Of a stretch of DNA of 64,000 bases, positions 49,501 to 52,500 are shown piece by piece; within the stretch, counting starts at the first letter, position 1, and every line of letters starts with the position of its first letter. The position numbers were made by a program. This DNA is from Escherichia coli (GTDB lineage: Bacteria; Pseudomonadota; Gammaproteobacteria; Enterobacterales; Enterobacteriaceae): assembly GCF_009931435.1 (NCBI RefSeq), contig NZ_CP043414.1. One strand, given 5' to 3'.

Positions 49501-52500
49501 CAACAGACGGTGATTATCACGGGTCGTGGTTGTCATCGGGATATTCTTGAACTGGCGGATACGGTAAGTGAATTACGCCCCGTCAAACATGCGTTTGATG
49601 CCGGTGTTAAGGCGCAAATCGGGATTGATTATTAAGTGAAAGCACCTCAAAAGTTCGCCTCTTGAGGTGCTTTAATCATAATTATATTCAAGCGGCAATA
49701 GCAAAACTCAGAATCCGTTTAATCTCATTCAAATGTCCCGGATATGCTTCATGATTCTCAGCGTCAACATCTTCAATAAATAATATCAGTTCAGTAATTA
49801 ACGCATTGGCATCTTCATAACTGATTCCGCTTAACTCTGGCGAAGTTTCAGTACCGTAGTTAATCGTCAGATTGTTCATCACCGTGAGGATAAGGATAAA
49901 ATATTTATGACAAACCTTGCATGTGGTTTTGTTGCCCAGAGTATTATACAGCATATCAAGTAATGCCAGTATTCTACGGTTTTGTACATCGTTCATAAAA
50001 AGCCCCTCCTATAACATTATTCCGCTGGCAATAAGTAATTTCGCCAGCCCCTCAGACGCCTTTAACCCACTAATGACCTGTGCGCGTAATATTTCATTTA
50101 ATCTTTTTTGTTCAGCTGCCGTGCGTGTTTTATTAGTGTATAAACCTTTTAGATAATCACCCTTATCTATAAAGGCATTTAAAGCTTCAATCGCGGGCAT
50201 TGCAGCAGCCGATGCCTGTAGTCTGGTTTCATTCACATTGATTACTGAACTTAGAAACTCCTTCCTGTTTTTCAGAGTGTTAAACTCTGTATTCTTAGAG
50301 TTTTTAGATACCGCATTATAATAAAGCATATTATTATGTACATTCGCAAAGGTATAATTTTCAATCTTATCGCCTTTTGTATAAATATCATTACGCAAAA
50401 CAGTCATGTTTTTTATAAGTCTTACCCAATTTTTATCCGCCGTTTTACCTATTTTCCCGGCATTGACCTTTATTATATATAACTCATTGAAATAACTTAC
50501 TAAATCTTTAACCGCCGCTGCCGATTCAGCTAAATCTTTGCTATGTGAAACATCAAGTAGTGTTTGCGCGTTGTTTGCGTGATCCAGAGCCTGTTTAAGT
50601 AATGTCACTTGCTGACTTTCTGTAGTTTTTATGTCTTCAGTCAAGAGCTCTACATAAGCACTCATGCTATTAATGACTTCCATTGAAGCCAGTAGTTTCT
50701 CTTTTTCGAATGGGACTAATTGTACTTTATCTGTTTTTTCTTCAGGGGGCCTGCATAATTTCCCACCCTGACCATCGTTCGCAACATCAATGGTATAATC
50801 AGGTCGCAATGCACAATCCGGATTAGTCGCATAAAAATTAACAAGAAAGTTTTCACGAGAAGCATAGTATTGTTTAAAGAAACTTGCATTCGCCGCAACC
50901 GCCTTGTTACCCGCAGTAATAACAGTTTCAGCTTGTTCATTCTTCAATGCTTCGGTTGCACAACCTGAAAGCATTAACAGCGATAGAAATAATCCACTAT
51001 ATCTAATCATAACCCACCTCTTGACGTTGAGTTTATCTCAGATAATTAAATAGTAATGTGGCTATTCCCTGGCATTATTCATAAGCAAGTATGAAATTAA
51101 ATTAAAATACTGCGACTATTTATCATGCTTCAAATGAAGAAAAGGCCCCGCAGGGCCTTTATTTAATACTTAACTTAAATTAACCGTTATTATTACGTCC
51201 ACCAGAACGACGACCGCCGCTGACCTGGCTGTGACGTTTCACCGCACGACGAATTTGATTCGCCTTCATACGACGACGGTCTTTTTCTACAGCAACTTTA
51301 GAGCTGGTTTCTGGCGGTAGTTCCACCAGCTCACGCAGATAGTTAGTCTGGGCAAGATCCAGCTCAGTCCAGCCACCGCGTGGCAGACCTTTCGGCAGTG
51401 GGATATCACCGTAACGCACGCGGATCAGACGGCTCACCTGCACACCAACAGCTTCCCAAAGACGACGAACTTCACGGTTACGGCCTTCGGTCAGAGTAAC
51501 GTTGTACCACTGGTTGATCCCTTCGCCGCCGCTGAACTTAATGGTTTTAAAGGCTGCCGGACCATCTTCCAGCTGCACGCCACGACTCAAATCACGCAGT
51601 TTCGCGTCGTCAACCTGACCAAATACACGCACGGCATATTCACGTTCAACTTCACGGCTTGGATGCATTAAACGGTTTGCCAGTTCACCATCGGTGGTGA
51701 ACAGCAGCAGACCACAGGTGTTAACGTCCAGACGACCTACGGCAATCCAGCGTGCGCCACGCAGCTTTGGCAGACGGTCAAATACCGTTGGACGCCCTTC
51801 CGGATCGTTACGGGTACACAACTCACCTTCCGGTTTGTAATAGGCCAGAACGCGACAAATTTGTTCAGCGGACTCACGTACCGAAATCAGGTGACCATCG
51901 ATACGGATTTTCAATCCAGGGGTAATTTCAACACGATCGCCGAGTTTAGCAATTTTGCCATCAACACTCACACGACCGGCTTCAATAATAGATTCGATTT
52001 CACGGCGAGAACCGTGGCCGGCACGCGCCAGCACTTTCTGTAGCTTTTCGCTCATAGAGCTTCCTTTTGGTGTCGCCTTCCCAGGCGTCGAACAGGAGAA
52101 TCAATGGCGCAGTAGAGCGCCATTTTAAGGCCGCGTAGTATACAGAGTTAAGCACTTATAAAAAAGGCTTCACATCACCTACGCCTTCACGCAATACGAC
52201 TGGCGTATCATCGGTGAGATCAATAACCGTTGTCGGTTTCTGCCCGAGATAGCCGCCGTGAATAATCAAATCCACCTGTTTTTCCAGACGGTCTTTAATT
52301 TCTTCCGGATCGGATTCGGTAAATTCACTGCCTGGCAGCATTAGCGAAGTGGAAAGCATCGGTTCGCCCAATGCTTCAAGCAACGCCTGCGCAATTGGGT
52401 TAGAAGGCACACGCATACCGATGGTTTTGCGTTTTTCCTGCAACAGACGGCGTGGCACTTCCTTCGTCCCCTTCAGGATGAAAGTGTAGTTACCCGGCGT

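What the first reader, a model, noticed from the sequence alone, without database searches (positions are those of the whole stretch)
49636..51179. AT-rich two-gene island (333-aa lipoprotein plus 102-aa partner) between the convergent btuR and rluB terminators
In K-12 as I remember it, btuR and rluB are adjacent, separated only by a short terminator-containing spacer. Here about 1.5 kb lies between the btuR hairpin (49642-49670) and the rluB terminator (51132-51160). The insert is visibly AT-rich: hand counts on short stretches give roughly 35-40% GC against about 50% or more in flanking genes (not computed over the whole segment). It encodes two co-oriented, tightly coupled genes (12-nt spacer, both with strong Shine-Dalgarno sequences): a 333-aa protein with a classic lipoprotein signal (LSGC) and two Cys, predicted periplasmic and helical, followed by a 102-aa protein with no signal peptide and a CKVCH motif. 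I recognise neither as a known family. No integrase, transposase or obvious target-site duplication flanks it. A small horizontally acquired module of unknown function at a terminator-to-terminator junction is the classic context for superinfection-exclusion or anti-phage genes, orphan immunity lipoproteins (for example against type VI effectors), or envelope-stress modules. Which of these, if any, applies is inference.
Basis: partly seen in the sequence, partly recalled or inferred. Interest (0 to 1): 0.75.

Follow-up and report, generated by a model that had tools for sequence, protein, structure and literature searches.

The report
Polymorphic lipoprotein operon of unknown function
Between two housekeeping genes this E. 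coli strain carries a real two-gene operon of unknown function (an outer-membrane lipoprotein plus a small cytoplasmic helical protein); it is absent from K-12 and present in about 23% of E. coli genomes as two very old allele classes, and a distant relative rides as cargo in a prophage.

Summary
Window 49636-51179 is a 36.9% GC cassette (window mean 50.7%). It encodes, on the minus strand, a 333-aa lipoprotein and a translationally coupled 102-aa protein. K-12 has only 39 bp at this junction.

It is not a recent island. The same pair sits at the same rluB|cobO junction in E. albertii, E. whittamii and a Citrobacter. In E. coli, 77% of complete genomes have the empty site, 14% a 340-aa allele class and 8% the 333-aa class seen here. 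The two classes differ far more than the flanking genes do. Each resembles another Escherichia species about as closely as the flanks do. Alleles have been swapped and recombined into mosaics.

Both genes are under purifying selection (dN/dS 0.16-0.30). Neither matches Pfam, NCBIfam, PADLOC, PHROGs or PDB sequences.

A profile search found rare lipoprotein relatives in Gamma- and Alphaproteobacteria and Chlorobiaceae, nearly always followed by a roughly 100-aa partner. One pair is an AT-rich cargo gene set (a "moron") between gpS and gpV of a P2-like prophage.

All 36 aligned lipoproteins keep the lipobox Cys, two further Cys that bracket a hypervariable loop, and one Tyr. The small protein models confidently as a four-helix bundle.

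Function is untested. An envelope-level exclusion or conflict role is my best guess at modest confidence.

The parts
49636..51179 (.). Whole cassette between the cobO/btuR stop and the rluB stop. It replaces the 39-bp K-12 spacer.
   Evidence: GC 0.369. Present in 1237 of 5426 complete E. coli genomes. The empty site is found in 4183 of 5426.
50009..51010 (-). Gene for a 333-aa prolipoprotein. The mature protein is 317 aa, pI 8.2, with Ala at +2, and is predicted all-helical.
   Evidence: Lipobox Cys, C66, C86 and Y119 are invariant in 36 relatives. No TM segment beyond the signal peptide. dN/dS 0.16-0.30. The AF2 model is low-confidence (pLDDT 45.8) and helical.
50960..51010 (-). Signal peptide and lipobox (MIRYSGLFLSLLMLSG|C). 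The Cys17 codon is 50960-50962.
   Evidence: Read from the sequence. Conserved in alignments A1 and A3.
50753..50815 (-). Codons Cys66 to Cys86. The two Cys are invariant and bracket a loop that is hypervariable in length and sequence; a periplasmic disulfide is presumed.
   Evidence: Alignment A3. This stretch has the highest dN between the two 333-type alleles (window vs L026). The disulfide itself is inference.
49688..49996 (-). Gene for a 102-aa acidic protein (pI 4.8) with no signal peptide, modelled as a four-helix bundle.
   Evidence: (pLDDT 86.9, pTM 0.82). dN/dS 0.18.
49997..50011 (-). Intergenic junction. The TAG stop of the lipoprotein gene overlaps the AGGAGG Shine-Dalgarno of the small gene, so the two are translationally coupled.
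   Evidence: Read directly from the sequence.
49641..49671 (.). 10-bp-stem hairpin (AGCACCTCAA...TTGAGGTGCT) between cobO and the small gene. Presumed bidirectional terminator.
   Evidence: Sequence.
51011..51130 (-). 5' region of the operon, with a GAGGTGG Shine-Dalgarno. No consensus sigma-70 promoter was found. It is 93-100% identical across allele classes.
51131..51160 (-). rluB intrinsic terminator (AAAGGCCCTGCGGGGCCTTT followed by a T-rich tail).
49645..50845 (.). Allele-specific block, 54-81% identical to the 340-aa class. In hybrid allele L027 the divergent block is only 50145-50845.
   Evidence: Identity map in 100-nt bins.

Best explanation
This is an old, polymorphic accessory operon at the rluB|cobO junction, not a fresh insertion.

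Gene 1 makes a lipoprotein. By the +2 rule (Ala, not Asp) it should be sorted to the outer membrane. Its long helical domain carries a hypervariable loop between two invariant Cys, presumably disulfide-bonded in the periplasm.

Gene 2 is translationally coupled and makes a small acidic cytoplasmic four-helix bundle.

The pair belongs to a rare two-gene family that is patchily distributed and moves between genomes. One member is cargo in a P2-like prophage.

Most likely role (inference): envelope-level protection in biological conflict, meaning exclusion of phages or bacteriocins. In this model the lipoprotein binds or occludes an envelope component from the periplasmic side, as the much smaller phage lipoproteins Llp and Cor do. 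The small protein would act before export, as a chaperone, neutraliser or regulator. The anatomy, distribution and evolutionary history are shown here. The function is inferred.
For: Anatomy.

No known family: Pfam, NCBIfam, PADLOC, PHROGs, PDB sequences.

Same junction in other species: Citrobacter, an unnamed enterobacterium, E. albertii and E. whittamii.

Frequencies in E. coli: 4183 empty, 776 with the 340-aa class, 458 with the 333-aa class, out of 5426.

Age of the allele classes: module dS between classes is 0.8-1.0, against flank dS of 0.01-0.31 (85). The 340-aa class is 76-95% identical to E. albertii, against 82-94% for the flanks. The 333-aa class is about 92% identical to E. whittamii, the same as the flanks.

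Recombination: L028 has cobO 97-100% and rluB 99-100% identical to the window per 100-nt bin but carries the other class. L027 is a hybrid.

The pair is kept in distant relatives. A 330-357-aa lipoprotein is followed 2-45 nt later by a 96-127-aa ORF in Buttiauxella, Raoultella, Pantoea, Methylomonas, Chlorobiaceae, Sphingosinicellaceae and metagenome contigs.

Mobility and conflict context: an AT-rich moron between gpS and gpV of a P2-like prophage, which is a known moron slot (PMC6823313). Other relatives lie next to IS elements, VapBC, TacAT, Fic and an orphan colicin DNase/immunity pair (42, 46, 48, 74).
Against: There is no experiment and no homology to any defence or exclusion protein.

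The family is absent from 50,697 phage records and from IMG/VR. The prophage link therefore rests on one species.

Some contexts are plain housekeeping neighbourhoods.

dN/dS is below 1 everywhere, including the Cys-Cys loop (85), so there is no direct signal of an arms race.

A cytoplasmic partner is not needed by known lipoprotein exclusion factors, and its role here is unexplained.

The lipoprotein model is unreliable (pLDDT 45.8).

The small partners of the distant group are not demonstrably homologous to the Escherichia partner (hhalign probability 1.6%).
Confidence: 0.35

Rival explanations
1. Exported toxin plus cytoplasmic immunity. The lipoprotein would be a weapon delivered by contact or by outer-membrane vesicles, with a variable active region. 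The small acidic protein would neutralise it in the producer before export.
For: The layout fits: a large gene is followed by a tightly coupled small acidic gene. There are deep allele classes with a conserved 5' end and a variable body. One relative lies beside an orphan colicin DNase/immunity pair.
Against: The variable block is central, not C-terminal, and the last ~40 residues are conserved. The small-protein allele of the window pairs with a 340-type lipoprotein in L027, so cognate matching is loose. No toxin domain is detectable. No delivery system lies nearby in the contexts read.
Confidence: 0.15
2. Orphan immunity lipoprotein that protects the periplasm against a T6SS or bacteriocin effector made by competitors.
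For: The protein is a periplasm-facing lipoprotein with a presence/absence polymorphism and deep alleles (4, 30, 86, 85). Many periplasmic immunity proteins are lipoproteins (general knowledge).
Against: No T6SS, VgrG, PAAR or effector gene lies within 6-8 kb in any context read. The obligate small cytoplasmic partner is unexplained. The pair also occurs in Chlorobiaceae and inside a prophage.
Confidence: 0.1
3. Host-interaction or surface factor. Examples are serum resistance or an antigen, like the lambda Bor or TraT lipoproteins. Host immunity or niche would keep it under balancing selection.
For: Allele classes are shared across species and alleles are swapped. It is common in human isolates, including records named ST-131. 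It sits in a moron position like bor.
Against: Relatives occur in free-living Methylomonas, Chlorobiaceae and Sphingomonadales. The pair is present in goat, gull and environmental E. coli. Surface exposure has not been shown.
Confidence: 0.12
4. Abortive-infection pair. The small four-helix bundle would be a membrane-disrupting executioner like the MLKL, HeLo or RPW8 N-terminal domains, and the lipoprotein would report envelope damage.
Confidence: 0.08
5. Dispensable envelope housekeeping or stress function with no role in conflict. It would be slowly decaying in E. coli.
For: The pair sits between housekeeping genes in several taxa. It has been lost from 77% of E. coli. IS1 insertions disrupt it in some strains.
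Against: Both genes are under purifying selection in every class. Two ancient classes are maintained and alleles are actively swapped. The pair is mobile in other taxa.
Confidence: 0.15

Closest known systems
Phage-encoded exclusion lipoproteins Llp (T5) and Cor (phi80/N15/HK022)
   Same: They are outer-membrane lipoproteins carried as non-essential phage cargo and act from the periplasmic side on an outer-membrane receptor (general knowledge). One relative of the present pair is prophage cargo.
   Different: Llp and Cor are about 60-80 aa and act as single genes. This lipoprotein is 317 aa when mature and always comes with a cytoplasmic partner. There is no sequence match (PHROGs). In E. coli the pair is chromosomal, not phage-borne.
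Lambda Bor and plasmid TraT lipoproteins (serum resistance, surface exclusion)
   Same: They are accessory outer-membrane lipoproteins carried by mobile elements, and they are strain-variable.
   Different: There is no homology. They act as single genes. The present family extends to free-living, non-host-associated bacteria.
P2 morons (orf30, Z/fun, tin/old slots)
   Same: The Buttiauxella relative is a 34-40% GC two-gene insert in a 55-61% GC prophage. It lies exactly between gpS and gpV, where P2 carries orf30 (PMC6823313).
   Different: This applies to a 23%-identical relative, not to the window. The S/V slot is not the hotspot for which Rousset et al. 2022 (PMC9122126) validated defence systems.
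Polymorphic toxin-immunity cassettes (colicin, CDI, Rhs, SitA/SitI)
   Same: A large exported protein is followed by a small, tightly linked cytoplasmic acidic protein. There are deep allele classes and recombination at a conserved 5' segment.
   Different: The variable region is internal and the C-terminus is conserved. Partner alleles re-assort (L027). No toxin domain or delivery system was found.
MLKL, HeLo, RPW8 and CC-NLR four-helix-bundle executioner domains
   Different: The fold is generic, and designed bundles score equally. There is no sequence similarity (7-13% identity) and no attached sensor or NTPase domain.

Membership tests
Bacterial lipoproteins (Lgt/LspA/Lnt substrates) | N-terminal signal peptide ending in a lipobox [LVI][ASTVI][GAS]C | tested here: met
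   The sequence reads MIRYSGLFLSLLMLSG|C. The Cys is invariant in 36 relatives. Acylation itself cannot be tested here.
Outer-membrane-sorted lipoproteins (Lol pathway) | No Asp at position +2 after the lipid-modified Cys | tested here: met
   The mature N-terminus is Cys-Ala-Thr. None of the 36 relatives has Asp at +2. The localisation is inferred from the rule, not measured.
Known anti-phage defence systems (PADLOC-DB v2.0.0) | Significant match of a component to a defence-system HMM | tested here: not met
   No hit at E<=1 for the two window proteins. Among ten relatives and partners searched at E<=0.1 there was one weak match (P0064 to PDC-M05A, E=0.042). The library dates from 2023.
Phage exclusion lipoproteins (Llp, Cor) and other phage protein families | Homology to a PHROG family or presence in phage genomes | tested here: not met
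   PHROGs gave only signal-peptide-level noise, E>=0.095. tblastn against 50,697 phage records gave no match. IMG/VR gave none.
P2-type moron | Compositionally distinct non-essential insert between conserved phage genes | tested here: met
   This holds for the Buttiauxella relative only. It lies between gpS and gpV, at 34-40% GC against 55-61% for the prophage. The window copy is not in a prophage.
T6SS immunity lipoproteins | Adjacency to a cognate effector or T6SS genes in at least some genomes | tested here: not met
   There are no such neighbours in any of the contexts read.
Polymorphic toxin-immunity pairs | Variable C-terminal toxin domain with a strictly co-varying immunity gene | tested here: not met
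   The variable block is internal and the C-terminal ~40 aa are conserved. The window's small-protein allele occurs with a 340-type lipoprotein that is 67% identical.
Unimolecular spanins | Lipobox at the N-terminus plus a C-terminal transmembrane helix | tested here: not met
   The C-terminal hydrophobic tail is only about 12 residues. The best 19-residue Kyte-Doolittle window outside the signal peptide scores 1.1.
c-type cytochromes (CXXCH) | Exported protein with a conserved CXXCH haem-attachment motif | tested here: not met
   CKVCH is present, but there is no signal peptide. The Buttiauxella homologue has CxxxxC and no His. The distant partners have one Cys or none.
MLKL/HeLo/RPW8-like four-helix bundles | Specific structural similarity above that to generic helical bundles | tested here: inconclusive

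The most novel reading that the evidence does not exclude
The pair is a new kind of two-compartment anti-phage or anti-bacteriocin system. An outer-membrane lipoprotein with a hypervariable disulfide loop would recognise or block an invader at the envelope. It would work together with a cytoplasmic MLKL-like four-helix bundle. Frequency-dependent selection would maintain it as ancient allele classes across Escherichia species.
Probability: 0.12. Interest if true: 0.8.

Novelty: new variant of a known kind. Interest (0 to 1): 0.5.

Why it matters
Roughly one complete E. coli genome in four carries this operon, including records named ST-131. It also appears widespread in E. albertii, where the small protein is indexed in about 398 blocks of the assembly collection. 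Every record read in the public collections labels both proteins as hypothetical.

Two allele classes older than the species, clean allele swaps between near-identical backgrounds, and a relative carried as prophage cargo all point to a selected, conflict-type function at the cell envelope.

If it proves to be an exclusion or defence factor, it would add a lipoprotein-based mechanism with no resemblance to known systems. It could also explain part of the strain-to-strain variation in phage or colicin susceptibility.

If it does not, it remains a clean example of long-term balanced polymorphism at a housekeeping junction.

Tried and rejected
1. Family searches found nothing for either protein or for distant relatives: Pfam, NCBIfam, PADLOC, PHROGs, and PDB by sequence and by profile.

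2. AF2 of the lipoprotein with a 12-sequence alignment gave pLDDT 45.8. I did not use it for fold search.

4. Phage records, plasmid records and IMG/VR hold no true copy. The three plasmid hits are chromosome pieces, one of them an error-ridden assembly.

5. I looked for a conserved third gene. The roughly 412-aa ORFs upstream in Methylomonas and Sphingosinicellaceae are unrelated to each other.

6. I tested whether the small partner is a copy of part of the lipoprotein. hhalign gave probabilities of 0.15% and 0.49%.

7. I tested whether the two groups of small partners are homologous. hhalign gave 1.6%.

8. Rfam gave nothing above threshold.

9. No consensus sigma-70 promoter lies upstream of the operon.

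10. Literature searches by accession numbers, by locus and by theme found no paper on these genes.

11. The word-index search with the wide alignment added no new members.
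Full report
**1.

Between the stop of cobO/btuR (49635) and the stop of rluB (51180) lie 1544 bp with two minus-strand ORFs. 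One is 333 aa (50009-51010) and the other 102 aa (49688-49996), 12 nt apart.

The AGGAGG for the second gene overlaps the TAG stop of the first. GAGGTGG precedes the first ATG. Both are read directly.

The cassette is 36.9% GC. The window as a whole is 50.7%, cobO 50.4% and rluB 52.9%.

The large protein starts MIRYSGLFLSLLMLSG|C, a lipobox with Ala at +2. It has two further Cys. The small protein has no signal peptide and contains CKVCH.

The rluB terminator (51141-51160 plus tail) was found by the scan. The cobO-side hairpin (49641-49671) is visible in the sequence.

K-12 MG1655 has 39 bp between rluB and btuR. Similarity between the two arrangements ends exactly at the two stop codons. The whole spacer is therefore different, and there is no target-site duplication.

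**2. Both are real genes**

- Between alleles, dN/dS is 0.16-0.30 for the lipoprotein gene and 0.18 for the small gene. The flanking genes give 0.00-0.10.
- Both ORFs are kept in every close relative found.
- The small protein gives a confident AF2 model (pLDDT 86.9, pTM 0.82) of a four- to five-helix bundle.
- Outside the signal peptide, neither protein has a segment hydrophobic enough for a membrane helix.
- The mature lipoprotein has pI 8.2 and the small protein pI 4.8.

**3. It is not a recent island**

Frequencies in 5426 complete E. coli genomes:

| State of the junction | Genomes | Source |
|---|---|---|
| Contiguous empty junction | 4183 (77%) | |
| Any match to the cassette | 1237 (23%) | |
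| 340-aa allele class, at least 80% covered | 776 | |
| 333-aa class seen here, at least 80% covered | 458 | |
| At least 99% identical to the window | at most 14 | |

The same pair lies at the same rluB|cobO junction in other species:
- Citrobacter sp. ANG330, about 51% protein identity;
- an unnamed enterobacterial contig;
- E. albertii;
- E. whittamii.

Among 100,044 species-representative genomes, only E. whittamii and E. albertii carry a close relative.

The two E. coli classes differ by dS 0.8-1.0 and are 54-81% identical at the nucleotide level. The flanking genes differ by dS 0.01-0.31.

Each class matches another species about as well as the flanks do:
- The 340-aa class is 76-95% identical to E. 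albertii, against 82-94% for the flanks.
- The 333-aa class is about 92% identical to E. whittamii across cobO, the cassette and rluB without a break.

The locus therefore predates E. coli. It carries allele classes shared across species, whether by ancient polymorphism or by introgression. K-12-like strains most likely lost it.

Recombination is evident in three ways:
- Strain 2017-02-2CC (L028) has flanks that match the window closely (cobO 97-100% and rluB 99-100% per 100-nt bin) but carries the other class.
- Strain MEW (L027) has the window's small gene and the last ~45 codons of its lipoprotein gene, joined to a 340-type body.
- The first ~55 codons and the 5' region are 93-100% identical in all classes.

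Some strains have IS1 inside or in place of the cassette.

**4. No known family, but a wider family exists**

Pfam, NCBIfam, PADLOC, PHROGs and PDB sequence searches gave nothing for either protein.

A profile search of 1.84 billion representative proteins found 56 hits. About 35 of them are full-length relatives of 324-357 aa at 16-24% identity.

Named sources are Buttiauxella, Raoultella/Klebsiella/Rahnella, Pantoea, Methylomonas, Chlorobiaceae, Sphingosinicellaceae and Novosphingobium.

All 36 aligned sequences keep the lipobox Cys, C66, C86 and Y119. The stretch between C66 and C86 varies freely in length and sequence. Two invariant Cys in an exported protein suggest a periplasmic disulfide around a variable loop; this is inference.

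The wide profile still matches nothing in Pfam or PDB beyond coiled-coil noise.

**5. The pair is the conserved unit**

In 11 of the 12 distinct neighbourhoods read, the lipoprotein gene is followed 2-45 nt later by a 96-127-aa ORF with no signal peptide.

The exception is a metagenome contig, L023. There the next gene encodes a 773-aa protein with an HEIGHALNLAH zincin motif.

The Buttiauxella partner is detectably homologous to the window's (E 1e-8 by HMM, 2.5e-6 by BLASTP).

The partners from Raoultella, Pantoea, Methylomonas and Chlorobiaceae form their own chain of similarity. That chain cannot be linked to the Escherichia group (hhalign probability 1.6%). For those taxa, only position, size and helical character are shared.

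No third gene is conserved.

**6. Context**

In Buttiauxella agrestis the pair is a 34-40% GC insert in a 55-61% GC P2-like prophage. It lies between the tail-completion gene gpS and the baseplate gene gpV. P2 carries the non-essential orf30 at that position, one of three known moron regions (PMC6823313).

Other relatives lie next to:
- a DDE transposase;
- IS110 and a Tn7-like module;
- VapBC, Fic and a Y1 transposase;
- an orphan colicin DNase/immunity pair, an IS3 element and TacAT;
- an H-NS gene;
- plain housekeeping genes.

None lies near T6SS genes.

The family is absent from 50,697 phage records and from IMG/VR. The three plasmid hits are chromosome fragments.

**7. The fold of the small protein**

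Foldseek against AFDB50 and BFVD finds nothing at E<=0.001. RPW8, MLKL and fungal N-terminal domains recur among the weak hits.

This is a lead, not a result.

The CXXCH motif is not a haem site. There is no export signal, and the motif is not kept in Buttiauxella or in the distant partners.

**8. Interpretation**

*Shown:* this is a coupled operon for a lipoprotein and a small soluble protein. It is old at this junction and polymorphic for presence and for two deep allele classes. It is recombining and under purifying selection. It belongs to a rare family that moves between genomes.

*Inferred:* outer-membrane location (from the +2 rule), a disulfide-bounded variable loop, and a role in biological conflict.

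I favour envelope-level exclusion of phages or bacteriocins at about one-third confidence. Three things point that way: the moron placement, the mobile and toxin-antitoxin-rich contexts, and the maintained allele classes.

Three things weigh against it. There is no homology or experiment. dN/dS shows no arms-race signal. The cytoplasmic partner has no explained role.

The rivals (toxin-immunity pair, orphan immunity, host-interaction factor, abortive infection through an MLKL-like bundle, plain envelope function) are each less supported, but none is excluded.

**9. Novelty and score**

The sequences are in public databases as hypothetical proteins. I found no paper on them.

The family is new to annotation. 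The kind of thing it appears to be, an accessory lipoprotein operon with moron-like behaviour, is familiar.

Interest is moderate. The population genetics are striking and the operon is common in clinically important lineages, but there are many such uncharacterised accessory pairs and the function remains open.

Noticed in passing
window 52056-52155: Only 100 bp separate rluB from yciO. K-12 carries the 1.9-kb yciQ (DUF2207) gene there. E. albertii, the Citrobacter and some E. coli also lack yciQ, while E. whittamii and other E. coli have about 2.1 kb there. This is a second presence/absence polymorphism next to the first, and the two assort independently.
   Followed up: partly
L029 2950-5206; L004 2288-2985: IS1 copies interrupt the lipoprotein gene (two copies in isolate AF10) or replace the whole cassette (strain Ec-U3). 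The operon has therefore been inactivated repeatedly in some lineages.
   Followed up: no
L023 9035-11356 and downstream to 17035: In one metagenome contig the lipoprotein relative is followed by a 773-aa protein with an HEIGHALNLAH zincin motif instead of a ~100-aa partner. Downstream lie genes with Trypco2, AAA_5 and FGE-sulfatase domains, typical of conflict systems.
   Followed up: partly
L010 12026-12613 (minus strand): The Buttiauxella P2-like prophage carries a second AT-rich cargo gene (Peptidase_C92) between the baseplate gene gpI and the tail-fibre gene.
   Followed up: no
L015 6719-7960; L017 6864-7910: In Methylomonas and Chlorobiaceae the pair is immediately preceded by a secreted protein. 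It has a TIG (Ig-like) domain in Chlorobiaceae and a weak adhesin-like match in Methylomonas. That subclade may have a three-gene form. The two upstream proteins are not significantly similar to each other.
   Followed up: partly
window 51034-51169 (+): Weak sub-threshold Rfam match to the Salmonella sRNA candidate STnc130 (24.3 bits against a gathering score of 55, E 0.89). It lies antisense to the operon's 5' region and is probably chance.
   Followed up: no
L014 6297-6698: In Pantoea an H-NS-family gene lies 1.3 kb upstream of the pair. The AT-rich cassette is a plausible H-NS target in enterobacteria.
   Followed up: no
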